Both the position numbers and the translations under genes were made by a program. This document shows, piece after piece, positions 1-56,085 of a DNA stretch of 64,000 bases. Each line of letters opens with the position of its first letter. Position 1 is the stretch's first letter. The notes below the pieces were generated by a model. It saw nothing but the letters and a program-made list of their open reading frames with translations, made no database searches and had not been told where the DNA came from. The DNA lies in IMG/VR virus record IMGVR_UViG_3300035696_000041; one strand, 5' to 3'. Source of the stretch: a virus.

Positions 1-87
1 ACACTCCGTCTCGTGCGAAGCACTTGATGGACAAGCCATCGTCAACAGGCTAAATGTCGGACCTAAACTCTGGCAAACCCATCTCCT

Positions 88-348
88 TTAGGGGATGGGT
101 AGTTGATACAAACACTCTTCCATGTTTCCCATGTTGCATTCCACGGCAGCGAGAGCCTTCTGAAAACCTCGGTAGTAGCCGAAGGTTCGGGTCTTTCTGT
201 CCGTCTTGATTTCTCCCGTGACTGGGTGGGTGGCAATCACCTTTGCCCAAATCGAAGTCAGAAACCAAATCTGCGTCGGGTCGTTTTTTCGCATTACCAT
301 ATCAATATCCTCGGTCTTCTCTCGAACCTTCTCGTTCGAAAATGGCAA
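88..348 (-). CDS. hypothetical protein
   Basis: 86-aa ORF with protein-like composition on the dominant coding strand. No recognisable motif. Confidence 0.3.
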   Translation of the reverse strand: MPFSNEKVREKTEDIDMVMRKNDPTQIWFLTSIWAKVIATHPVTGEIKTDRKTRTFGYYRGFQKALAAVECNMGNMEECLYQLPIP

Positions 349-2090: not shown

Positions 2091-2329
2091 TAGAATCTGA
2101 CGAGCGACACCCCGTCAGTCACCAGCCGATTGCGACTAAAGGTCTTGAACTGTCCATCCCTCTTCGAGAGGGCGTTGTCCAATTCGTATCCTTTCACATA
2201 GTCACCGTCAGCTTCGACTACACGGAGGTAGCGAACCTTCATTTTGCCAGTGGTGGAATCGGGGTACTCGAACTTCACTACGGGAGTGCGTTCGTCCTTT
2301 GGTGTATTTGGGTCTAAACTTCCAGTCAT
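2090..2329 (-). CDS. hypothetical protein
   Basis: 79-aa ORF. A promoter-like TTGACA-17-TATGAT at 2339-2370 places a TSS about 2-3 nt before its ATG. Confidence 0.4.
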   Translation of the reverse strand: MTGSLDPNTPKDERTPVVKFEYPDSTTGKMKVRYLRVVEADGDYVKGYELDNALSKRDGQFKTFSRNRLVTDGVSLVRF

Positions 2330-2370
2330 AGTGCCGACATCATATCAGAATGCCAATCTGATGTCAAGCA

Positions 2371-2514
2371 CTATTCCATCTGGTCAATGACTTTCTTGAA
2401 GATGGAATGGTCGTACCCACCGTTGCACGCCTCGAATAGGATAATAAGAAGAGGAATCACTGTGATGCAACAGAACAGTAAGAGCATCCCGATTATTACG
2501 TTTTTGCTTTTCAT
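2371..2514 (-). CDS. small membrane protein (47 aa, one TM helix)
   Basis: ATG overlaps the TGA of the upstream nadE fragment (ATGA). Hydrophobic core IIGMLLLFCCITVIPLLIILF. Below the ORF-track size cutoff. Confidence 0.3.
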   Translation of the reverse strand: MKSKNVIIGMLLLFCCITVIPLLIILFEACNGGYDHSIFKKVIDQME

Positions 2515-2944
2515 ACTTTTAACGCCTGTAGTTCAGCCAACTCTTCCTCATAGCCGCCCGTGAGGATAGGAGTGCGGCACCACGTCCTCGGGTCGAGGTT
2601 GTGGTCGTCCATATGGAACGAGAGAGCATACCGCTCACGCTTCCACTGATTGCGGCTGAATAAGCGGAAGAACTTCGTGATGCTATCAATGAGCTTATTG
2701 CGGTCGTAGTCCACTTCTCGGCTGATGGCATTGAAGATTTCCACGGGCACATAGCGGTTCTTCACCACGTAGCTTTCAATCATGTGGAGCAGCCAATAGG
2801 GCATCAGGTCGTCCTCGTCGGTCTGCTTGCATTCGGCGGGCCTTAGCTCGGCTGTCGGCTGTTGCTCATTGACGTACTTCATGGCGGGGCAAGGGCCAAT
2901 GCCTTCTGGTCCTTCCTCTTGCACCCACTTGAGGTACTCACGGA
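2511..2944 (-). pseudogene. nadE: NAD+ synthetase (NadE) C-terminal fragment, separated from its 5' part by IS insertion
   Basis: TAELRP...KQTDEDDLMPY matches the conserved C-terminal region of NAD synthetases. The first 46 nt of ORF 2511..2990 derive from the IS right end. TGA stop. Confidence 0.6.
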
Positions 2945-4265
2945 TATGAACTACCCACCCGCTAAAGCAGGTGGGGTTCCCCCCAAGCAATAGTTATGAG
3001 TTTCTATTGGGTAGTTCCTACCCATTTTGTATTCCATCTTGGGAAATGCGAAATCTACGATATTCTTCGCAGCATTCACATCTCTATCGTGTTGTGTATT
3101 ACAAGTAGGACACTTCCATTCTCTATCATCAAGTGTTAGAGAATGATTTACATATCCACAATGGGAACACATTTTACTGGATGGGTCAAATCTTCCAATC
3201 TTACGGAAGTTTTTACCATACCAATCACTTTTGTATTGGAGCATATTTACAAACTTATTCCAAGCATAATCAGCGATGCGATTATTGGTTGGTGAATAGT
3301 TTATGGTTTGTATGCCCTTCACAGACAAATCCTCAATACAAATAGTATTCACTTGGTTTTCGTGAGTGAGTTTGTATGAGAGTTTATCCAAGAAATCTTT
3401 TCGTTGTCTTGCTATTTTGGAATGGAGTTTGGTAATCTGCTCTTGCTTGGAGATATAAGCAGTAGAACCTTTAGTGAGTTGCTCCAAGTCCTGTTGGTGT
3501 TTGGTGAGTTTGTCTTGCGACTTTTTCAACACCTTTGGGTTCTCAATCTTGGTTCCATCGTTTAGAGTAATGAATGTCTTTACTCCAAAGTCCATTCCTA
3601 TTGCTTTGTTCCTCTTTGGTTCGGGTTTGGCTGGGAAATCCTTATTCACTTCCACAAGGATAGAGACATAATACTTTCCATCTCTGTCTTGGGATACGAT
3701 TGCTTGCTTCAATGTTCCTTCTGCTGGTCTATCAAAGATACACTTTATTCCTTCACGGAACTTTGGTATGACTAATCGTTTCGTCTCATAGTTCAGTTTG
3801 ATATTACTATTGGTGATGGGAACTATGAAGGATTTACGGGCATCCTTCCTTGACTTGAACTTGGGAAATCCTGCTCCACTACGAAAGAATGCGGTGTATG
3901 CTCGGTCAAGGTTTAGGATGGACTGCTGTAATGATTGAGAACCTATCTCACTCAACCATTCGTATTCGTCCTTGAGAGTGGGGAGTTGAGTTGCTAAATC
4001 CTGCCAAGTGATAGTTTTCTTGGTGGATTTGTAATGGTCTATTTTGACTTGGAGGAAGTGGTTATAGACGAAACGACAATGACCAAAATGCTTGGACAAA
4101 AGAACTTGTTGTTCCTTGTTCGGCATCAAGCGATATTTGTATGCTCTGTTATACATCCTACTAATACATATAGTTGAGTTTGAGAAAACATCAAAGTATT
4201 TTCAATGGGTCGCATTCATCCCATCCGCTAAAGCAGATGGGTTTTCTGCTTCCACCAAAGATAAA
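2945..4265 (-). mobile_element. IS200/IS605-family TnpB-only insertion element, copy 1 (1321 bp)
   Basis: Ends defined by alignment with copy 2. Subterminal hairpins cccacccgctaaagcaggtggg (RE) and cccatccgctaaagcagatggg (LE). No tnpA. Lies inside nadE. Confidence 0.75.
2951..4156 (-). CDS. tnpB: TnpB RNA-guided endonuclease (OrfB, IS605/IS1341 type)
   Basis: 401 aa. RuvC-I IGMDFGVKTF, RuvC-II CIEDL, zinc finger CSHCGY...CPTCNTQHDRDVNAAKNI. About 78 percent identical to copy 2. Confidence 0.85.
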   Translation of the reverse strand: MYNRAYKYRLMPNKEQQVLLSKHFGHCRFVYNHFLQVKIDHYKSTKKTITWQDLATQLPTLKDEYEWLSEIGSQSLQQSILNLDRAYTAFFRSGAGFPKFKSRKDARKSFIVPITNSNIKLNYETKRLVIPKFREGIKCIFDRPAEGTLKQAIVSQDRDGKYYVSILVEVNKDFPAKPEPKRNKAIGMDFGVKTFITLNDGTKIENPKVLKKSQDKLTKHQQDLEQLTKGSTAYISKQEQITKLHSKIARQRKDFLDKLSYKLTHENQVNTICIEDLSVKGIQTINYSPTNNRIADYAWNKFVNMLQYKSDWYGKNFRKIGRFDPSSKMCSHCGYVNHSLTLDDREWKCPTCNTQHDRDVNAAKNIVDFAFPKMEYKMGRNYPIETHNYCLGGTPPALAGG

Positions 4266-5624
4266 CTTACCAATCTTGAGGTATTCCTTGAACACGGGGT
4301 CAACGTCAAGGACCAAGAAGGGCACCCCGAGGGCCGCAGAGACTTGATTGGCCGATTCCCGAGTCACCTTGCCACTGTTCTCTGTCGGCTGATAGGCAGT
4401 AGTGATGAGTATCCTCGTAAGAATACGAATCTGTTCCTCTTGGTCGTAACGGTCAAAGTCACTGCAACGAGCAGCACTCGCACAGTGCGGAGCGTACTTG
4501 GCGAGGAAAGGAACTGCCCCAAGTTCTCGTACTCCCAACTCGATGCCCTTGGCACACGCATAAGTCACCATTGACGAGTCGGCACCGCCAGATAGAGAGA
4601 TTACAAAGCCCTTGGTGTGGGACTTCCGCATGTAATCCATGAGAGCAAGGCCGAGGGCACGGGTGCATTCCTCATGTTTAATGTTAATGCCGCTTTCCCA
4701 CGGCTCTTCGAGAGTATTCATATTCTTCTCGGCCACACTCGGGAAAAGGAAGTCTCCCTTGACGCATCCTTCATTATATCCTTCAAGGTTCGGTTGAAAG
4801 GATGCCGTTCTGGCAACACTCGTTTTGGTCGTATGCACGTCCACGATGGCAGAAGTAATGAGAGAATCACGATAGGTAAACCGTTTGCCTTCTGCACAGA
4901 GAGACCCACCCGAGGCAATCAAAGCACCGCCATCATAGATGGCACGTCCAGATTCGTTGCCTACGAGATTTGCATACACATAGGTTGCACCGAAGGCTCG
5001 GGAGCCATCCACGACGAAGTTCCTTCGGGTCACTATCTTGCGGAAAGCGAAGTGAGAAGCTGAGGGATTGAGATAAATATCCACTCCCTTACCCGCCAGC
5101 TTGGTGCCAGGGCGTGCCGCAACCCATGCATCCTCACAGATTTCATATCCAATCTTCACCCCATCGAAAAGGAAATGAGTATCACCAATAGGATAGTCAG
5201 TTCCATTGATGGTAATGTGCTTGACTATACCCGAGGGCCACGGCTTGAAGTGGCGAGGCTCATAGTGGATGCCATCCCCCGCCAAGTGTTGCTTGCACGT
5301 AAAGCCCCACACTTGCTTGTTGGCAACAGTAGCCACGGCGTTATAGAGAGTGTTGTCAAACATCACGGGGAGTCCAATGCACACGATGATGTCCTTGGTG
5401 TGCTCGGCAATGGCGAAAAGCTTCTTCATCGCCCGTGCGGGAACGTCGGCACAGAACAAGTCGTCCTCAAGGCCGTAGCCCGTGATGGTCATTTCGGGAA
5501 GGCACAGCACCGATATGTTCTGATTCTTGGCTTCCCAAATGGTCTGAATGATATTCTTGTGGTTATTCTTCCAGTCCCGAGGGGTCTGATTCATTACCGC
5601 AGCACCAACTTTGATTAGTTTCAT
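4266..5624 (-). pseudogene. nadE: glutamine-dependent NAD+ synthetase (nitrilase domain + PP-loop synthetase domain), 3'-truncated by IS
   Basis: N-terminal CN-hydrolase domain, then SLSGGADSS PP-loop. ORF 4191..5624 ends with 25 aa (GGSRKPICFSGWDECDPLKIL) encoded by the IS left end. Confidence 0.75.
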
Positions 5625-6025
5625 TTGGCGGGTTCTTTCTTGGATGTATAGGTATAACCGAAGACGAGATAAGAAAACCCGTTGCTTCGATTGACACCAA
5701 GCAGCACATGCTGTAGGTTTACGTCGGTTGAGCCGTGGAAGTGGTTAAGCACAGCTTCATAGAAGCGGGCAGTCTTCGGAGTAAGTTTAGCTTTCTTGGC
5801 CAACTCAAACCCCTCTTGCCATTCCTTTCCAATGAGACGGTCATCGTAGTTGTAGAATAGCCCTTCCTTGGGGGCACCAAAAACCGTAATAGCATCGCCC
5901 CTGGCCTCGGGGTCCGAGTAATGCATGAAGGTGCGTATCGGCGTATCCTTATCCGTCAACGCAAAGCGGCATGGAAATTCGTCTTCCTGGTCCCAGTACC
6001 CCAAGTTGGAATGTATGCGTTTCAC
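5621..6025 (-). CDS. hypothetical protein (between nadE and pncB)
   Basis: 134-aa ORF translationally coupled to flanking NAD genes. No recognised motif. Confidence 0.45.
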   Translation of the reverse strand: MKRIHSNLGYWDQEDEFPCRFALTDKDTPIRTFMHYSDPEARGDAITVFGAPKEGLFYNYDDRLIGKEWQEGFELAKKAKLTPKTARFYEAVLNHFHGSTDVNLQHVLLGVNRSNGFSYLVFGYTYTSKKEPAK

Positions 6026-7206
6026 TTCGTTACACTTTCTACGGGAAGGCCGAGAGTAGCCTTTACAAGGTTCACGTCTTCGAGATTGCCCGTGTGTTTA
6101 CCAGGGTCATCCGAGAGTTTCACCACACCCACAGAGCCGTTGCCGAAGTCGGCAGTAGCCAGTTTGATAACCATATTCAAGGGTTTGATGCCCTCGATGT
6201 CATTGGCGAAGTGGGTTCCGATACCACCGCACGGCTGAATGAACTTGCGGAAGTACTGGTCGAGGGCAACGTAGGTATCAGTATCCAGCCCATTGCTGAA
6301 CACGAGCCGCTTCTCTTGAGAAGGAATGCGGAGCCTCTTGTAATGGTCCACCGCTCGGATGCCTTGCTCGTAGTTCTCGCCACTGTCCACCCGCACACCA
6401 TCGAAGAGGCGGGCGTCATAGGTATCAAAATCCCGATAGAACACCTTGCTCGTGAAGGTGTCGGTCAGAGCAATACCCACATTGCCATTGAAATGAGCCG
6501 CCCAATGCTTACGCCACATTCTGTCGGCCATGAGGGGGCCATAGAGGGCAGACATTGCCATGATGCACTCGTGGGCGTAGGTGCCGCTTGGAATCACGCC
6601 GTACTTCATCGCAAAGTGCGGGTTGCTTGTGCCGAGGAAACCTTCACCATCACGCATGATTTCCACAACATTTGCTTGCACTTCGTAAGAATGGCGGCGA
6701 CGGGTGCTGAAATCAATCCAGTGGCATTTGTTTTCAGAAAGCTTCGTAGTCTTCCGTTGGATGCGAAGCTTCCAATCGCCAGAGGCGGGCTGATTAGTCA
6801 TACGGAAGTACAGTTCCGAGATAATCGCCATCAGTTTGACTTCCCAATAGATGGTGCGATACCAGTAGCCCGTGATAATGATAGTGAGAGTGCCGTTGAC
6901 TTGCTTCACTTCCACTTCCCGAGGGTCCATGCGGTAGTGCCGCAGCCATTCGATGTAGGTCGGACGCTGGTACTTGATGCTGTTCCGCATCCAATCGGCC
7001 TCGGCGTCGGTCATTTCCAGTTTGGAAAGCATTTCCAGTTGCTTCTGGAGTTCAATATCAAATCCCTTGGGGAAGGGCACCTTGCTCCGAAGGATGAACT
7101 TGTACGACACCACGGCGTTCGGAAAGTCATGGAACACGACAGACCCCATGTTGAACTTGTACAGGTCGTCGTCTAGCATTGAGCGGATGATGGGTTCGTC
7201 AATCAT
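6022..7206 (-). CDS. pncB: nicotinate phosphoribosyltransferase (NAPRTase)
   Basis: SMLDDDLYKFNM N-terminus, LTDTFT and GVRVDSGE motifs typical of PncB. Start taken at the internal ATG 7206, because the upstream 40 codons are low-complexity. Confidence 0.7.
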   Translation of the reverse strand: MIDEPIIRSMLDDDLYKFNMGSVVFHDFPNAVVSYKFILRSKVPFPKGFDIELQKQLEMLSKLEMTDAEADWMRNSIKYQRPTYIEWLRHYRMDPREVEVKQVNGTLTIIITGYWYRTIYWEVKLMAIISELYFRMTNQPASGDWKLRIQRKTTKLSENKCHWIDFSTRRRHSYEVQANVVEIMRDGEGFLGTSNPHFAMKYGVIPSGTYAHECIMAMSALYGPLMADRMWRKHWAAHFNGNVGIALTDTFTSKVFYRDFDTYDARLFDGVRVDSGENYEQGIRAVDHYKRLRIPSQEKRLVFSNGLDTDTYVALDQYFRKFIQPCGGIGTHFANDIEGIKPLNMVIKLATADFGNGSVGVVKLSDDPGKHTGNLEDVNLVKATLGLPVESVTK

Positions 7207-7210
7207 ATGC

Positions 7211-7528
7211 TTATTCGAAGGTCGGGGTTTTGGTGATGGTTTCCGTAGTGCGGGTCGTGTACTGGATTTCGCCGCACTCTTGGCAAACACGTTTCCAACG
7301 AAAATCGGTCTTGGCGGCAACGTCACACGGGCCTCGCCAGTCCACTCCCATCGTGCCAGGAGGGTCGCCAGGGATGGTGTAGCCTTTGTGGTAAATGTGG
7401 TCGGGCGTCACCGCACCCCACCGATGGTTGCACGAGCGTACAGCGGAAACTAGCTTCCGCTCGGTTTCATCCAACTCCAACCGCATTGCGGCAACCCGAA
7501 GGCGAAGGTCTTGAATGTTATGGTTCAT
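7211..7528 (-). CDS. hypothetical protein with CxxC motif
   Basis: ORF 7211..7639 trimmed to ATG 7528. Contains CQECGE. Confidence 0.35.
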   Translation of the reverse strand: MNHNIQDLRLRVAAMRLELDETERKLVSAVRSCNHRWGAVTPDHIYHKGYTIPGDPPGTMGVDWRGPCDVAAKTDFRWKRVCQECGEIQYTTRTTETITKTPTFE

Positions 7529-7832
7529 TTGTATTCCAAACTGCCTTGCTAATGAGCACGTCAACCGAGTCCTTCTCGGTCTCGAATCGGCAGTCCATTT
7601 CTCGCAAGACGTAGAGAGGTTCCCCAGCCTCGGCGGCAATCTCCTTCAAGACGGGGCCATCCTTGGTAATGTCCACGTCACCAAACCACACCTTGCCTTG
7701 GCTCTTGGTGACGATGTTGGCGTTCCAGACGCACTTGTGGCCCTTGGGAGCTATCTTGCTGCCCGAGACCATTCGGCCACAGTACAAATTGCGTTTGTCG
7801 AACAGAGGGTAGAAATTTACTGGTTCACTCAT
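7518..7832 (-). CDS. hypothetical protein
   Basis: 104-aa ORF on the coding strand. Confidence 0.4.
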   Translation of the reverse strand: MSEPVNFYPLFDKRNLYCGRMVSGSKIAPKGHKCVWNANIVTKSQGKVWFGDVDITKDGPVLKEIAAEAGEPLYVLREMDCRFETEKDSVDVLISKAVWNTNEP

Positions 7833-11562: not shown

Positions 11563-12564
11563 TTATGTTATAAGCATTTCCGATAGTATTTTTGGAATGC
11601 GATTTAACTCAGTGTATTTTATTCTCATTAACTCAATACCCCGCTTGCTTGCGTATTGGGTCTTTATAGCATCTCTCCATTGGACGCCCTCCAAATCTTT
11701 TTTTGTGGAGACGTAGTTCCCGAGTTTTCTTCCACACATAAAATGTTGATTTCCGTCATACTCAACAAGTATATTCTTTTTTGGGATGTAGAAGTCGAAC
11801 TTCAACATACGACCAGTCTTGGGGTTTCGGCAATCATCAAAACTTTTCTGAGGAATATATGCAATCTTATTCTGGTCAAAGAATGCCATTATTCTTTGTT
11901 CTCCTTTGGAGAGACGACACTTGGGGCATCCACAACTATCACGGTGTAAATGTAAATGTGGAGTTTGCCAGAACTCCCCGTGTTTTTTGCAAATTATTTG
12001 TAACTTGCGGTGCTCTCCCTCGTAGATTGTTTTTGAATAATCGTAAAGGTCTCCATGAATATGTTTTGCTTCGGTTATAAACTCCGCTTGGGATTTTCGT
12101 CTGGAGGTTGCAGTTTTTACAAACCCACATTTTAGACATCCACTCCCATTGAGATGAGTATTCGGCTTTTGCTTGTACACGCCGTGCTCTGGGCATCGTA
12201 TTATAACAGGTACGTGGGCAGAGACATATGTGGATTTGGAGTAATCATATTTGTCTCCGTGGATTTCTCTTGCCTTTTTGATGAAATCATTGGTATTGGA
12301 AGTATATTTTCCGCTGCAAAAAACACATCCACAACCTCGTAAATGCGAATTCGGCTTCTGATGAAATTCGCCGTGAATAGGACATATTATTGTTACTTTT
12401 TCCTTGTTATCTTTACCATAGATAGTTTTGCCATAATCATACTTATTGCCATGAATTACAGCCGCTCGTTGTACAAATTCAGTTGTAGTAAGTTTCTCGC
12501 TCATATACATAAATAGCGAGAAAAGTCCCAAAAACGTAATATTGTTTGTCAGTATGTATTTCAC
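11563..12564 (-). CDS. homing endonuclease-like protein: three HGxKYDYSK zinc-ribbon repeats plus C-terminal DUF559/Vsr-like nuclease
   Basis: Repeats HGNKYDYGK / HGDKYDYSK / HGDLYDYSK each with CxxC pairs. C-terminal VEYDGNQH...R motif of Vsr-like endonucleases. Confidence 0.5.
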   Translation of the reverse strand: MKYILTNNITFLGLFSLFMYMSEKLTTTEFVQRAAVIHGNKYDYGKTIYGKDNKEKVTIICPIHGEFHQKPNSHLRGCGCVFCSGKYTSNTNDFIKKAREIHGDKYDYSKSTYVSAHVPVIIRCPEHGVYKQKPNTHLNGSGCLKCGFVKTATSRRKSQAEFITEAKHIHGDLYDYSKTIYEGEHRKLQIICKKHGEFWQTPHLHLHRDSCGCPKCRLSKGEQRIMAFFDQNKIAYIPQKSFDDCRNPKTGRMLKFDFYIPKKNILVEYDGNQHFMCGRKLGNYVSTKKDLEGVQWRDAIKTQYASKRGIELMRIKYTELNRIPKILSEMLIT

Positions 12565-15689: not shown

Positions 15690-16499
15690 TTACCAATCCT
15701 TCGTGTTGGTGGTCTTCATCCCCTTCTTGACCAGTTCTCTCACGAAGTCTTGGCCAAGCTTCTCGAAGCCGCCGACATTACTCGACGTGTCTTCAAGGAG
15801 GGTGAACTTGGAGACTTGGCTATCGCCAAACTCCGCAGCCACGTCACGGATGCTGTTTGCGACACAGTGCGACAGTGCCTCACCCGTGATAAGGATTTCA
15901 TCGGCCTCAGTAAGCATATCAATGAGGGCCGTATTCAGCTTGGTGGAAGGGTCGTCGTCATCGGGCACGTCGGCCTTGACAGCCGAGTAGTGCTCCGTGA
16001 ACAGGTTCGAGCCTTTGGCCACGAAGTTGACACGATTGAAGTCGCTCTCCCACTCATAGAGTGCCTTGGCAACTTCGGGAACGATGGCGTGACCCCAAGT
16101 GCCGATTAGGCAGTGCGGGGGCCAGATGCAGAGAACGTATCGCCCGTTTTTCTTGAGGGTTTCAACGTAACTCTGGGCCTTGCCTTGCCACTTCGGATTG
16201 AATGCCCGCCACACGCCGTTCTTCACGTCATCCTCAGTAATGAGAGTGAACGGATTCGGCCTATCGCCCTTGGAGTTGACCCAGAAGGCGGGGTGTGCGA
16301 TATGCACATATTGGTGCGAATCCAACGTGCAGTGGATTTGTTCGAGACGCCCCTTGTTCTTGGAAACGAACTTCCCAAGTCGGGCCATGTCTTGGTCTGC
16401 CCCGGCGACTACCAAAGCACCCTTCTCCCCGCCCGGGCCGAGGGGGATACAGAAGTCGTTCTGTGGGTCAATGGTTATTAGGTGTACTTTTCGGCTCAT
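15690..16499 (-). CDS. pncA: nicotinamidase / isochorismatase-family cysteine hydrolase
   Basis: IDPQNDF motif at the N-terminus and catalytic ITGEALSHCV. Confidence 0.65.
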   Translation of the reverse strand: MSRKVHLITIDPQNDFCIPLGPGGEKGALVVAGADQDMARLGKFVSKNKGRLEQIHCTLDSHQYVHIAHPAFWVNSKGDRPNPFTLITEDDVKNGVWRAFNPKWQGKAQSYVETLKKNGRYVLCIWPPHCLIGTWGHAIVPEVAKALYEWESDFNRVNFVAKGSNLFTEHYSAVKADVPDDDDPSTKLNTALIDMLTEADEILITGEALSHCVANSIRDVAAEFGDSQVSKFTLLEDTSSNVGGFEKLGQDFVRELVKKGMKTTNTKDW

Positions 16500-16553: not shown

Positions 16554-17477
16554 TTATTTCAAGCGTAATATCTCTCCTTTGAAGTAGTCGTTCAACATTG
16601 AGAGCAGAGGACGGTGCATAGGCATGATGTCCCCTTCGCTTATCTCACCAAATTGTGCCCACTTGACGAACTTGATGTCGTCTCGGGCCTTCGGCTCCCC
16701 GCCGATGTACCGCATTACGTATAGGAACGTGAGAATCTTGTCTTGCTCACGGCGATACCGCCAGTCGTCCACGATGGAGCTACCGACATAGCCAACCAAC
16801 TCAAGGTCAAGGCTCGTCTCTTCCTTGCCTTCACGGCGGGCCGCATCCTCGGCACTCTTGTCTTTGGCGGGGTCAGTGAACCCACCAACAAGCTGCCAGA
16901 GGTCCGCATTGGGCTTCTGAGCCAGCAAGAGCCGCTTCTTGTCGTAGTCCACGATACCAAGGTCCACCGTCGCTTTGAACGAGGGATATTGATTCTGAAC
17001 GGCGAATACGACTCCTTCACGGAAGTCTTGCGTGTTCTTGCCTTTGATGCCTATGCGGCGGCGAACTTCACTTGCCGATATGTACTTGCTCGGCACGAGT
17101 TCTACGGTGGGGTAATGGCCCATGTAGCCATTGATGAAGCTGTCTCGACTACCGTACAGGACCACACGAAGATTGGGTCCAACGGTCTTGGCGATTTGTT
17201 TATCGAGGTTCTTGCTCCAGATTTCGTTGTGACCAACGTCGTCAATGTAGAGCACTTCGATGTCTTGATAAGCTTCCTCAATCATCGCCTTGCGGATAGC
17301 AAAGTCGAAAGGATTGTTGAATGTGCATTTCAGCGGAGAGAGTCCGAGGAATATAAGGACTCGGGGGTGAGCGGCACGTACTGTGTCCAGTATCTCTTTG
17401 TGCCCCTCATGGAGGAACGGCGATTGAAATCTCGCCACGATTACGCCAACTTCGGCGTCATTATCCGTCGTCTTCAT
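16554..17477 (-). CDS. bifunctional NMN/NaMN adenylyltransferase (NadM type) - Nudix ADP-ribose pyrophosphatase
   Basis: VIVARFQSPFLHEGH (NadM GRFQPFHxGH) then Nudix box GGFTDP...REGKEETS. Start trimmed to ATG 17477. Confidence 0.7.
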   Translation of the reverse strand: MKTTDNDAEVGVIVARFQSPFLHEGHKEILDTVRAAHPRVLIFLGLSPLKCTFNNPFDFAIRKAMIEEAYQDIEVLYIDDVGHNEIWSKNLDKQIAKTVGPNLRVVLYGSRDSFINGYMGHYPTVELVPSKYISASEVRRRIGIKGKNTQDFREGVVFAVQNQYPSFKATVDLGIVDYDKKRLLLAQKPNADLWQLVGGFTDPAKDKSAEDAARREGKEETSLDLELVGYVGSSIVDDWRYRREQDKILTFLYVMRYIGGEPKARDDIKFVKWAQFGEISEGDIMPMHRPLLSMLNDYFKGEILRLK

Positions 17478-17617
17478 AGCACCTAATCTGTATCTCGGTT
17501 TTGCTAACACAACGTAGCTTCATCAAAATCTCGGCCACGCTGACAACAATACATATTGTTGATTCTGCCAAAAGTGTAACAGAAACACTAAGTCATGTCA
17601 AGTTTTCTTTTCGGCAG

Positions 17618-36863: not shown

Positions 36864-37355
36864 GGGCTTGTGTAGCGACTTCACAAGTTCTGCAAACCCA
36901 GGTGCCGCAGTATCTTCCGTATTGCCCTTTTTCCGCATCCGCTTGTAAATGTCGTCCACCCATTCGAGGAATTCCTGCTCATCATTGTAGGCGGCGAACA
37001 CCGAGGCGTATTGCTGTAGCTCTTTCTGCTCCATCCAAATCCAAACAGCCACTTCAATGTGAAGAGTCGGGGAGATTTGATAGATAATGCGTTGGAGTCC
37101 ATCCTCGGGTTTCATTGGAGCGTTGTAAGCCACGCACTTGTCTTTCAACTCTTTCACAAGCTTTTTGCAGTCCACAGCGAACCCGATGCGATTAAGCTTG
37201 ATTTTCTCCATGTCCCGAAGCCACTTGCCGCTCGGGAGAAATGCGAACCGCTTGAGGTACTCATTGAATGAATCCACATTGAATGAGTGGCTCAGATGCG
37301 GAAGGATGTCCTTCCGCCAGAATTCATATACGGTATTTAGGTGGTCGTAGTTCAT
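36858..37355 (-). CDS. hypothetical protein
   Basis: 165-aa ORF. Confidence 0.4.
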   Translation of the reverse strand: MNYDHLNTVYEFWRKDILPHLSHSFNVDSFNEYLKRFAFLPSGKWLRDMEKIKLNRIGFAVDCKKLVKELKDKCVAYNAPMKPEDGLQRIIYQISPTLHIEVAVWIWMEQKELQQYASVFAAYNDEQEFLEWVDDIYKRMRKKGNTEDTAAPGFAELVKSLHKPS

Positions 37356-54278: not shown

Positions 54279-55598
54279 TTTATCTCTGTGGGAGCAGAAA
54301 ACCCACGCACCTTTAGGTCGTGGGATGAATGCGACCCATTGAAAATAGTTAATCGTTTTCTCAAAGTGAATGATATGTATCTTGTAGAATGTATAACGTT
54401 GCTTACAAATACAGAATATATCCGACCAAGGAACAAGAAGTCCTTTTGTCTAAACATTTCGGACATTGCCGATGGATATACAATCATTTTCTTGAAGTAA
54501 AGATTAAGCATTACAAAGAAACCAAGAAAACATTGAACTGGCAGGATATGGCAACTGAACTACCAAAATTGAAAGAAGAATATGAATGGTTGAGTGAGAT
54601 TGGAAGTCAATCTCTCCAACAATCTATTCTCAACTTGGATAGAGCATACACTTCCTTTTTCCGTTCCAATGCTGGATTTCCCAAATTTAAGTCAAAGAAG
54701 TATGCTCGTAAGTCGTTCATTGTTCCAATGACAAATAACAACATTAAACTGAACTATGAGACAAAACGATTAGTCATACCGAAGTTTCGTAAAGGAATAA
54801 AGTGTGTATTTGACCGACCGGCAGATGGAATCTTGAAGCAAGCAATTGTATCACAAGATAGAGACGGAAGATATTATGCTTCCGTTCTCGTAGAAGTTGA
54901 AAAAGAACTTCCAAAGAAACCAAACCCAAAGAAAGATAAAGCAATCGGCATAGATTTTGGAGTTAAGACATTTTTGACATTGAATGATGGAACAAAGATA
55001 AAAAGTCCTAAATACCTTAAACAATCTGAACAGAAACTTACCAAACACCAACAGGATTTAGAAACTCTCACCAAAGGTTCCACTGCTCATATCTCCAAAC
55101 AAGAACAGATTACCAAACTTCATAGTAAAATAGCAAGACAACGAAAAGATTTCTTGGATAAACTCTCATACAGATTAACGAACGATAACCAAGTTCAATC
55201 CATCTGTATTGAGGATTTAACCATTCGGGGAATGCAGAAAGACAACTATTCACCAACTAATAAACTCATAGGAGATTATGCTTGGGGGAAGTTTGTAAAT
55301 ATGCTCCAATATAAAAGCGACTGGTATGGTAAAAACTTCCTAAAAATAGGTAGGTTTGAACCATCCAGTAAGACGTGTTCTCATTGTGGATATGTAAATC
55401 ATTCTCTCACATTAAATGATAGAGAATGGACTTGTCCAGATTGTAATGAAAAACACGATAGAGATGTGAATGCTGCCAAGAATATCTTGGATTTCTCATT
55501 TCCAAAGACAACGTTTAATACGGGTAGGAACTACCCGATAGAAACTCATAACTATTGCGGTGGAAACCCACCTGCTTTAGCGGGTGGGTAGTTCATAG
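54279..55598 (+). mobile_element. IS200/IS605-family TnpB-only insertion element, copy 2 (1320 bp)
   Basis: Left end tttatctctgtgggagcagaaaaccca and right end cccacctgctttagcgggtgggtagttcata both align with copy 1. Opposite orientation. Confidence 0.75.
54389..55591 (+). CDS. tnpB: TnpB RNA-guided endonuclease (OrfB)
   Basis: 400 aa, full RuvC-I/II/III and zinc finger (CSHCGY...CPDCNEKHDRDVNAAKNI). Collinear with copy 1. Confidence 0.85.
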   Translation: MYNVAYKYRIYPTKEQEVLLSKHFGHCRWIYNHFLEVKIKHYKETKKTLNWQDMATELPKLKEEYEWLSEIGSQSLQQSILNLDRAYTSFFRSNAGFPKFKSKKYARKSFIVPMTNNNIKLNYETKRLVIPKFRKGIKCVFDRPADGILKQAIVSQDRDGRYYASVLVEVEKELPKKPNPKKDKAIGIDFGVKTFLTLNDGTKIKSPKYLKQSEQKLTKHQQDLETLTKGSTAHISKQEQITKLHSKIARQRKDFLDKLSYRLTNDNQVQSICIEDLTIRGMQKDNYSPTNKLIGDYAWGKFVNMLQYKSDWYGKNFLKIGRFEPSSKTCSHCGYVNHSLTLNDREWTCPDCNEKHDRDVNAAKNILDFSFPKTTFNTGRNYPIETHNYCGGNPPALAGG

Positions 55599-55744
55599 AA
55601 GTAGGGCTTGAATCTTTCGCAAGCCTCATCCCGAGTGATGCCGAGGCGATTGTGGTCGAAGGGGTTTCCGAAAATAGAAGAACGGTCACAGACAACATCG
55701 GGCTTGTGGCACCGCATGTTGACTATGACCGTTTGCGATTCCAC
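55577..55744 (-). pseudogene. DUF4326-like protein, 3'-truncated by the IS right end
   Basis: IVNMRCHKPDVVCDRSSIFGNPF...ACERFKPYF matches the DUF4326 core (dvyIgR...GNPF). The last six codons (YELPTR-stop) are IS-derived. Start position uncertain. Confidence 0.3.
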
Positions 55745-55752
55745 AGGGCTGT

Positions 55753-55947
55753 TTAGCGGGAGCCAACCGGAAGAACCATCATCTTGGACTTCAACACGTA
55801 GTTTCTCAGCGTGGCGAGGTCTTGCCGCAAAGGGCGACGGTTCATGGTGTAACGGGTGAACGTGAAGCCACCGTAGGGGCTGGTCGTCCAACGTCCGTTT
55901 GAGCGGTAGAAGATGCCGTACCTCACGGCTTGTTTCTTGTTTGGCAT
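55753..55947 (-). CDS. hypothetical protein
   Basis: 64-aa ORF. Alternative frame to the long ORF 55577..56020. Confidence 0.25.
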   Translation of the reverse strand: MPNKKQAVRYGIFYRSNGRWTTSPYGGFTFTRYTMNRRPLRQDLATLRNYVLKSKMMVLPVGSR

Positions 55948-56085
55948 AACTTGTTTGTTCTTTTCGTTTTACATACACAACTCCACAGGGGAGTATCTTA
56001 CGCAGCTTATAATTTACCACAGATGCCCTTGGGTGTCAATAACAAAAAAGCCCCGCCGAAGCGGGGCTGTGCAAAACGGGTCTTG

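What the first reader, a model, noticed from the sequence alone, without database searches (positions are those of the whole stretch)
2511..5624. nadE is split by a 1321-bp TnpB-only IS element; near-identical 12-nt sequences flank the insertion
The 5' part of nadE (4266..5624) reads through into 25 IS-encoded codons. The conserved NadE C-terminal block (TAELRP...QTDEDDLMPY) resumes at 2944 on the other side of the element. The flanks are gaatacctcaag (left) and gagtacctcaag (right).

IS200/IS605 elements do not normally duplicate targets, so this repeat is unexplained. It could be coincidental local sequence. It could also be relevant to omegaRNA guide and target recognition, because the guide is derived from the right flank.

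The insertion would inactivate the last step of the NAD+ route in this genome. That implies either a recent insertion or that the first three enzymes suffice, for example if the host NadE is used.
Basis: seen in the sequence. Interest (0 to 1): 0.7.

Follow-up and report, generated by a model that had tools for sequence, protein, structure and literature searches.

The report
TnpB insertion sequence replacing part of nadE
A small, ordinary RNA-guided-nuclease transposon sits in a phage NAD synthetase gene; the "flanking repeat" is normal gene sequence, and 214 bases of the gene are missing, so the gene is permanently dead.

Summary
The core observation holds. On the minus strand, nadE is interrupted by a TnpB-only IS200/IS605-type element.

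Three details of the finding change:
- **Element limits.** About 20 independent copies, plus a clean second copy in this window, place the element at 4260..2946 (1315 bp, not 1321). It inserts 3' of TTTAT and ends in TTCAT.
- **The 12-nt repeats.** They do not abut the element; they lie 14 nt and 6 nt away. They are not a target duplication. Intact nadE genes of related phages carry both copies, 246 bp apart, as codons for ..KEYLK.. and ..REYLK...
- **The two fragments.** They do not join into one NadE. 214 nt are missing: 71 codons plus one base, including the conserved TTSNMSEAAVGYATMDGD block. They are not found elsewhere in the window, and precise excision would leave a frameshift.

The left junction is a canonical joint at one native TTTAT. 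The right flank is what follows a second TTTAT-type site 214 nt downstream in intact relatives.

I therefore read the locus as a composite of two canonical target joints. The most likely route is recombination between two same-orientation insertions. The main rival is one insertion followed by a deletion between two copies of the 9-nt sequence AAGTTTATC.

This is an ordinary mobile element with a modest mechanistic footnote.

The parts
4261..5624 (-). nadE 5' part: 454 codons plus AT of codon 455. It ends in the native target pentanucleotide TTTAT (4265..4261).
   Evidence: Pfam CN_hydrolase and NAD_synthase. Colinear with intact homologues up to ..KIGKFI.
4275..4286 (-). Left 12-mer GAATACCTCAAG, the native nadE codons for (K)EYLK. 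It lies 14 nt upstream of the IS.
   Evidence: Intact relatives have GAGTACCTCAAG at the same place.
2946..4260 (-). IS200/IS605-type TnpB-only element, 1315 bp. It begins CTTTGG.. and ends ..GGGTAGTTCAT.
   Evidence: The ends are shared by about 20 independent copies that have unrelated flanks. The first base C is assigned to the IS from the empty-site reconstruction of copy 2. GC content is 39.8% against 51-54% in nadE.
4215..4241 (-). Left-end subterminal hairpin CCCATCTGC-TTTA-GCGGATGGG. Its foot lies 19 nt from the cleavage point.
   Evidence: DNA fold z = -2.45. The stem keeps pairing through sequence changes in other copies. IS608 has the same 19-nt geometry (PMC3201880).
2951..4156 (-). 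tnpB, 401 aa, apparently intact.
2946..3100 (-). Presumed guide-RNA (omegaRNA) scaffold overlapping the 3' end of tnpB. It includes the right-end hairpin CCCACCTGC-TTTA-GCGGGTGGG and the right cleavage motif TTCAT.
   Evidence: RNAalifold on 8 copies gives conserved stems, and 5 pairs have compensatory changes. DNA fold z = -2.21. The 5' limit is not determined.
2926..2945 (-). Right flank, the presumed 20-nt guide template ATCCGTGAGTACCTCAAGTG. This is native nadE from codon Ile527 (P0001 numbering).
   Evidence: All copies diverge immediately after TTCAT. The stretch is identical to the intact nadE of L001.
2928..2939 (-). Right 12-mer GAGTACCTCAAG, the native nadE codons for (R)EYLK. It lies 6 nt downstream of the IS.
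2511..2945 (-). nadE 3' part: 144 codons plus the stop codon.
   Evidence: Aligns to the C-terminus of intact NadE and to PDB 3ilv. 88.9% nt identity to L001.
54284..55596 (+). Second, diverged copy of the same IS family (78% nt identity; TnpB 80.5% aa identity). It is a clean insertion 3' of TTTAT in a DUF4326 gene and serves as an internal control.

Best explanation
**Shown**
- A 1315-bp TnpB-only IS200/IS605-type element (the IS1341 type of organisation) sits in the nadE gene of a large phage.
- It has the family's asymmetric ends. The left-end hairpin lies 19 nt from the cleavage point. The right-end hairpin is followed by TTCAT. The element inserts 3' of TTTAT without duplication.
- The two 12-mers are ordinary nadE codons, found 246 bp apart in intact genes.
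- The locus is not a simple insertion. The left joint is at native TTTAT site 1 (..AAGTTTAT|C..). The right flank (ATCCGT..) is the sequence that follows a second TTTAT-type site, site 2, 214 nt downstream in intact nadE. The 214 nt between them are gone, so nadE is irreversibly inactivated.

**Inferred**
- The structure is a composite of two canonical insertion joints.
- The most likely route is two insertions in the same orientation, at site 1 and site 2, made by a TnpA supplied in trans. The insertions could have been in one genome or in co-infecting variants.
- Homologous recombination between the two IS copies then removed the intervening segment. Less likely, the same join was made by the assembler.
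- The element's RNA would now carry the guide ATCCGTGAGTACCTCAAGTG. TnpB could then cut IS-free nadE alleles that have TTTAT at site 2.
For: - Element ends and target motif: about 20 independent copies with unrelated flanks.
- Copy 2 in the same window: removing it, including the C after TTTAT, restores a complete DUF4326 domain (profile positions 9-82 of 82, E = 5e-14). The truncated ORF covers only positions 9-43.
- TTTAT is an experimentally established transposon-adjacent motif (TAM) for ISGst2 TnpB2 (10.1101/2023.03.14.532601).
- The left-end geometry matches IS608 (PMC3201880).
- Intact homologues show native sequence up to ..KIGKFI and again from IREYLKW... The 71 residues between them are absent from the whole window.
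- In 7 intact relatives the two sites are always 214 nt apart. Three of 7 have TTTAT at site 1 and 2 of 7 have it at site 2; the others differ by one or two bases, mostly one.
- TTTAT is rare in nadE: only 2 occurrences in the 5' part and none in the 3' part.
- Both junctions recur at 100% identity in independent contigs.
- TnpB's catalytic residues and zinc finger are intact.
- The 3' region has conserved RNA structure.
Against: - No contig or protein with the reciprocal junctions was found, that is RE|CAAAGG.. or ..GTNTAT|CTTTG...
- No other nadE::IS allele turned up among 31 metagenomic and 4 viral copies.
- No TnpA gene is present in the 64-kb window, so transposition must have relied on a helper.
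- Two insertions within 214 bp is an a priori rare event.
- The same end product arises from one insertion plus a deletion between 9-nt repeats.
- The data cannot tell in-vivo recombination from an assembly join through the shared IS.
Confidence: 0.5

Rival explanations
1. One canonical insertion at site 2, followed by a short-repeat deletion. The ancestor would read ..AAAGTTTAT|CTTTGG..IS..TTCAT|ATCCGT... Slippage or short-homology recombination then deleted 214 nt between the native AAGTTTATC at site 1 and the AAGTTTAT+C formed by site 2 plus the first base of the IS.
For: The 9-nt repeat exists if the Val codon at site 2 was GTT, as it is in L010. The right flank is exactly the canonical flank of site 2. 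This route needs only one transposition. The IS adds 1.3 kb to a packaged genome, so a compensating deletion in an already dead gene costs nothing.
Against: It requires a deletion end point that falls exactly on the IS boundary. The ancestral GTT codon is inferred, and the closest relative at this spot (L001) has GTG. No allele with the IS at site 2 and an intact upstream segment was found.
Confidence: 0.3
2. A transposase-made adjacent deletion. With the IS at site 1, a TnpA complex cleaves at the right end (TTCAT|) and at the downstream TTTAT| of site 2, captured as a target. It joins the right end to ATCCGT.. and releases the 214-nt segment as a circle. This would be a one-ended, intramolecular version of integration.
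For: Both end points are exact TnpA-type cleavage positions. The chemistry is the same as in normal integration as described for IS608 (PMC3201880).
Against: My literature search found no report of such events. No TnpA is present in the window. Nothing in the sequence separates this route from the others.
Confidence: 0.1
3. One reading: a simple insertion into a continuous nadE. The 12-nt repeats would be a target duplication, or be tied to guide and target recognition, and excision would restore the gene.
For: The 12-mers are real and match at 11 of 12 positions. The right one lies inside the presumed guide.
Against: Both 12-mers occur in intact nadE of relatives, 246 bp apart. They do not abut the IS ends. 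214 nt of nadE are missing. The left 12-mer has no TTTAT in the right position. Other copies of the IS, including copy 2, show no flanking repeat.
Confidence: 0.01
4. A self-splicing IStron (a group I intron fused to an IS605-type element), which would leave nadE functional at the RNA level.
For: Group A IStrons also insert after TTTAT (PMC13565253).
Against: Rfam gave no group I intron or any other credible hit in 2300..5800 at E <= 1. Only 104 nt lie between the left end and tnpB. The element ends in TTCAT, not TCAG. The flanking exons are not contiguous, with 214 nt missing, so splicing could not restore NadE. Copy 2 lies antisense to its host gene.
Confidence: 0.01

Closest known systems
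ISGst2-type IS605-family elements of Geobacillus stearothermophilus (TnpB2, TAM TTTAT)
   Same: The same pentanucleotide, TTTAT, lies 5' of the left end. TnpB has the same domain set. The guide is templated by the right flank.
   Different: ISGst2 was studied together with an active G. stearothermophilus TnpA (GstTnpA), whereas this element carries tnpB only. The proteins were not compared directly here. Nuclease activity and the motif requirement are untested for this element.
ISDra2 TnpB (PDB 8bf8, 8exa, 8h1j)
   Same: Full-length alignment at E = 3e-62. The RuvC D/E/D residues and the zinc-finger cysteines are conserved.
   Different: ISDra2 targets TTGAT and encodes TnpA. This element targets TTTAT, lacks tnpA and lives in phage genomes.
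IS608 (end architecture and TnpA mechanism)
   Same: The ends are asymmetric, with subterminal hairpins. The left cleavage site lies outside the element, 19 nt from the hairpin foot, and the right cleavage site lies inside the element a few nt 3' of the hairpin. There is no target duplication (PMC3201880).
   Different: The cleavage motifs are TTTAT and TTCAT rather than TTAC and TCAA. The right motif ends 8 nt from the hairpin foot, against 10 nt quoted for IS608's TCAA site. No TnpA is present.
IS1341 group (TnpB-only members of IS200/IS605)
   Same: The element's only ORF is tnpB.
   Different: Group assignment rests on gene content only. No ISfinder comparison was possible.

Membership tests
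IS200/IS605 family, TnpB-only (IS1341-type) element | Encodes a TnpB/OrfB protein (HTH, RuvC-like OrfB_IS605, zinc-ribbon TNB domains) | tested here: met
   Pfam hits at E = 4e-19, 1e-23 and 4e-24. Match to ISDra2 TnpB at E = 3e-62 with the catalytic D/E/D residues aligned.
IS200/IS605 family, TnpB-only (IS1341-type) element | No terminal inverted repeats; subterminal hairpins at both ends | tested here: met
   Left-end and right-end hairpins fold with z = -2.2 to -3.3. Both are conserved, with pairing-preserving changes, across copies.
IS200/IS605 family, TnpB-only (IS1341-type) element | Insertion 3' of a short specific target sequence, without target-site duplication | tested here: met
   TTTAT lies 5' of the left end in every copy with the consensus left end, about 15 independent flanks, while the right flanks are unrelated. 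The empty site of copy 2 reconstructs exactly, with no duplication.
IS200/IS605 family, TnpB-only (IS1341-type) element | Multiple copies in different genomic contexts (evidence of mobility) | tested here: met
   Two copies in the window, 4 loci in IMG/VR and 31 metagenomic loci.
IS200/IS605 family, TnpB-only (IS1341-type) element | Absence of tnpA within the element | tested here: met
   Only 104 nt separate the left end from tnpB, and 5 nt separate its stop codon from the right end. tblastn with a Y1 TnpA found nothing in the window.
OMEGA system (TnpB plus omegaRNA RNA-guided nuclease) | Structured non-coding RNA at the 3' end of the element, continuing into a flank-derived guide | tested here: inconclusive
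   Conserved stems with 5 compensatory pairs in 8 copies. However, the region is also coding, Rfam gave no match, and no transcript data exist.
OMEGA system (TnpB plus omegaRNA RNA-guided nuclease) | TAM-dependent, guide-dependent DNA cleavage | not testable with these tools
   Needs a plasmid-interference or in-vitro cleavage assay.
IStron (group I intron fused to an IS605-type element) | Group I intron ribozyme core at the element's 5' end | tested here: not met
   No Intron_gpI hit in 2300..5800 at E <= 1. The 5' untranslated part is only 104 nt.
Glutamine-dependent NAD+ synthetase (NadE), functional gene | Continuous CN-hydrolase and complete NAD-synthase domains | tested here: not met
   Residues 456-526 of the intact homologue are missing, and the two parts are out of frame once the IS is removed.

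The most novel reading that the evidence does not exclude
The 214-nt loss could be the footprint of a reaction not yet described for IS200/IS605 elements. In it, the element's right end is re-joined by TnpA to a second nearby TTTAT target without prior excision. This deletes the DNA in between and, in one step, re-programmes the TnpB guide to a new flank. If so, these elements could make site-specific adjacent deletions and switch guides without moving.
Probability: 0.1. Interest if true: 0.6.

Novelty: new member of a known kind. Interest (0 to 1): 0.3.

Why it matters
- **For annotation.** nadE in this phage is a dead gene that excision cannot rescue. The phage-encoded nicotinate route therefore stops at deamido-NAD unless the host NadE completes it.
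- **For method.** A repeat that seems to flank a mobile element has to be checked against intact homologues before it is read as a target duplication or a guide-related feature.
- **For transposon biology.** The locus gives a natural example of an IS200/IS605-type element bounded by two different target sites. It also gives a defined family of phage-borne TnpB elements, with a TTTAT motif, about 20 natural guide and flank pairs, and one exact empty-site reconstruction. These could be used to test TnpB homing between co-infecting phages.

Tried and rejected
- **Target-site duplication or guide-related repeat: rejected.** Both 12-mers are native nadE sequence.
- **Missing segment moved elsewhere in the window: rejected.** tblastn found nothing, with best E = 0.26 over 13 aa.
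- **nadE as a hot spot for insertions in relatives: rejected.** P0094/L005 is truncated at IREYL and P0021/L011 at MIES. Both are 1-nt frameshifts, and the rest of the gene follows immediately.
- **IStron or group I intron: rejected**.
- **Near-identical phage in GenBank phages:** none found by megablast.
- **Other nadE::IS alleles:** junction patterns in IMG/VR gave 0 hits or 2 unrelated chance hits. None of the 35 related IS loci lies next to nadE.
- **Search for a hypothetical RE-segment-LE "middle" ORF:** it returned only unrelated NadE fragments at 71% identity or less. This is a weak negative.
- **Co-conversion of the right flank: rejected.** The 3' part is 88.9% identical to L001 against 78.7% for the 5' part, but it is more conserved between all relatives too.
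- **Self-targeting.** No second match to either copy's guide exists in the window.
- **TnpA in the window:** none found.
Full report
**1. What is in the sequence**

All features lie on the minus strand.
- ORF 5624..4191 (477 aa) carries a CN_hydrolase domain and the first part of NAD_synthase.
- ORF 4156..2951 (401 aa) is a TnpB. It has HTH_OrfB_IS605, OrfB_IS605 and Cas12f1-like_TNB domains.
- This TnpB aligns over its full length with ISDra2 TnpB structures (8bf8, 8exa, 8h1j; E = 3e-62). The RuvC residues align in the motifs GMDFG, CIEDL and HDRDVNAA, as do the CxxC...CxxC zinc-finger cysteines.
- ORF 2990..2511 contains the NadE C-terminus.
- The two 12-mers exist: GAATACCTCAAG at 4286..4275 and GAGTACCTCAAG at 2939..2928. 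A third copy lies in an unrelated place, at 37262..37251.

**2. Limits of the element**

A protein-guided scan of IMG/VR found 4 related copies. A scan of JGI metagenomes found 31 more, with TnpB 77-94% identical. The window itself holds a second copy on the plus strand (78% nt identity; TnpB 80.5% aa identity).

In every copy where the conserved end motif was found, the conserved sequence starts at TTTATC-TYTG..GGAGCAGAAAACCCATC.. and ends at ..GCTTTAGCGGGTGGGTARTTCAT. After that the flanks are unrelated.

Copy 2 settles whether the C after TTTAT belongs to the target or to the element.
- Deleting 54284..55596, C included, fuses two minus-strand reading frames into one ORF with a complete DUF4326 domain (profile positions 9-82 of 82, E = 5e-14).
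- Keeping the C creates a stop codon and leaves only profile positions 9-43.

The element therefore begins with C, and the target motif is TTTAT. Copy 2 is a clean insertion without duplication or loss.

By the same rule, copy 1 is 4260..2946 (1315 bp).
- Its left-end hairpin (CCCATCTGC-TTTA-GCGGATGGG) starts 19 nt after the cleavage point. This is the IS608 geometry (PMC3201880).
- Its right-end hairpin (CCCACCTGC-TTTA-GCGGGTGGG) is followed by TAGTTCAT.
- The element's GC content is 39.8%, against 51-54% for nadE.
- TTTAT is the experimentally defined transposon-adjacent motif (TAM) of ISGst2 TnpB2 (10.1101/2023.03.14.532601).
- No Y1 transposase gene was found in the window.
- The last 220 nt of 8 copies fold into conserved stems, and five base pairs show compensatory changes. 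This fits an omegaRNA scaffold, but the region is also coding, so it is not proof.

**3. The 12-nt repeat**

The reconstructed protein finds many intact NadE homologues of about 670 aa. The best is P0001, at 81% identity, on phage-like contigs of 31-153 kb. These contigs have the same neighbours as the window: PP2C, NAPRTase and a small ORF upstream of NadE.

The intact proteins read ..DVDPVFKEYLKIGKFIKGTSLSF...(71 aa)...GLPKVYIREYLKWVQEEGPEG... At the DNA level, L001 has GAGTACCTCAAG twice, 246 bp apart, and so does L046. Both 12-mers in the window are therefore native codons from two different places in nadE. They are not a product of the insertion. They also lie 14 nt and 6 nt away from the element's ends.

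**4. The missing segment**

- The window follows intact nadE up to ..AAGTTTAT (4261) and resumes at ATCCGTGAG.. (2945).
- In all seven intact relatives examined, these two points are 214 nt apart.
- The lost stretch encodes KGTSLSFKDDDLTLQNLQARVRAPSIWMIANMEGKLLLTTSNMSEAAVGYATMDGDTAGCVSPIAGLPKVY. This is among the most conserved parts of the synthetase domain. The PDB 3ilv alignment shows the same gap, with roughly chain residues 417-485 unmatched.
- The segment is not encoded anywhere else in the window.
- Because 214 is not a multiple of three, precise excision would leave a frameshift.
- Both junctions recur at 100% identity in independent short contigs, L044 for the left and L045 for the right. 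Neither of these contigs spans the whole element.

**5. How the structure arose**

The left joint is a canonical joint at a native TTTAT (site 1). In intact relatives, the right flank is immediately preceded by GTTTAT (L010), ATTTAT (L048), GTGTAT (L001), GTCTAT (three relatives: L005, L046, L047) or GTGTAC (L011). Site 2 is therefore a perfect or near-perfect TTTAT.

TTTAT is rare in nadE, with two occurrences in the 5' part and none in the 3' part. It is unlikely to be chance that the deletion runs exactly from one cleavage position to another.

Three routes give exactly this product.
- **(a) Two insertions.** Two same-orientation insertions at sites 1 and 2, followed by recombination between the IS copies. 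This could happen in one genome, between co-infecting variants, or as a join made by the assembler.
- **(b) One insertion plus a short-repeat deletion.** One insertion at site 2, then a deletion between the 9-nt repeat AAGTTTATC. One copy is native at site 1. The other is formed by site 2 plus the first base of the IS.
- **(c) A one-ended TnpA reaction.** The right end is joined directly to the second target.

I rank (a) first because it explains both flush end points without further coincidence. Route (b) is close behind and (c) is a minor possibility. Searches for the reciprocal junctions were negative.

**6. Consequences**

- nadE is irreversibly inactivated.
- Neither fragment carries a further stop or frameshift. 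The 3' part is 88.9% identical to L001, as conserved as between intact genes. The event is therefore probably recent.
- The window is a large phage genome. Its genes include a radical SAM enzyme, PP2C, VWA, DNA ligase, thymidylate synthase, a Ser/Thr kinase fused to DnaJ, and a homing-endonuclease-like ORF.
- The NAD-related genes are NAPRTase (7326..6022), a NadM-like adenylyltransferase fused to NUDIX (17510..16554), and a weak isochorismatase-like ORF. Without NadE, the phage route would stop at deamido-NAD unless the host enzyme completes it. This last point is an inference from the standard Preiss-Handler pathway.
- The presumed guide, ATCCGTGAGTACCTCAAGTG, matches L001's nadE at 20 of 20 positions. 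There, however, it sits next to TGTAT, and ISGst2 TnpB2 is very sensitive to changes in this motif. Only alleles with TTTAT at site 2 would be good targets.
- Neither copy's guide has a second match in the window.

**7. Comparison with known systems and verdict**

This is a new member of a known kind: an IS1341-type TnpB-only IS200/IS605 element with a TTTAT motif, resident in phages. It is not an IStron.

The unexpected part is the exact site-to-site loss of 214 nt, which is of modest mechanistic interest.

Noticed in passing
window 54284..55596 (+), with flanking minus-strand ORF parts 56020..55597 and 54283..about 54120: A second, diverged copy of the same IS family (1313 bp; TnpB ORF 54389..55591) splits a DUF4326 gene. 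It lies antisense to that gene. Removing it restores the full domain. Its presumed guide is AGAAGTAGGGCTTGAATCTT.
   Followed up: yes
window 77..107 (+): A solo right-end-like hairpin, AACCCATCTCCTTTAGGGGATGGGTAGTTGAT, with no tnpB beside it. It ends in TTGAT rather than TTCAT. It could be a remnant or a miniature derivative. It sits at the window edge, so the upstream sequence cannot be seen.
   Followed up: partly
window 12564..11563 (-); L005 8446-9174; L011 2635-3804; L001 3854-4540: ORFs with DUF723/DUF4379 (treble-clef zinc finger, homing-endonuclease-like) and GIY-YIG domains occupy different positions around the NAD gene block in related phages. This suggests free-standing homing endonuclease genes are moving in this region.
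   Followed up: no
L005 about 7590-7610; L011 about 6750-6770: nadE in two related long contigs (378 kb and 141 kb) carries single-base frameshifts, and the rest of the gene continues in another frame. These are probably long-read assembly errors rather than real pseudogenes.
   Followed up: partly
window 6025..5621 (-): A 134-aa ORF with no Pfam match lies between NAPRTase and nadE. Relatives have shorter ORFs (82-94 aa) in the same position. Its function is unknown, and it may belong to the NAD module.
   Followed up: no
window 17510..16554 (-) and 16499..15690 (-): A cytidylyltransferase-like plus NUDIX fusion (NadM-Nudix-like) sits next to an ORF with a weak, sub-threshold isochorismatase hit that may be a nicotinamidase. 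With NAPRTase and nadE, these would form a phage-encoded nicotinamide/nicotinate-to-NAD route.
   Followed up: partly
L016 418 and 2922; L015 629-1015: One metagenomic contig carries two left ends of this IS family 2.5 kb apart, so copies lie close together there. Another has a Y1 TnpA-like gene about 1.5 kb upstream of the TnpB element, in the opposite orientation. It is a candidate helper transposase.
   Followed up: no
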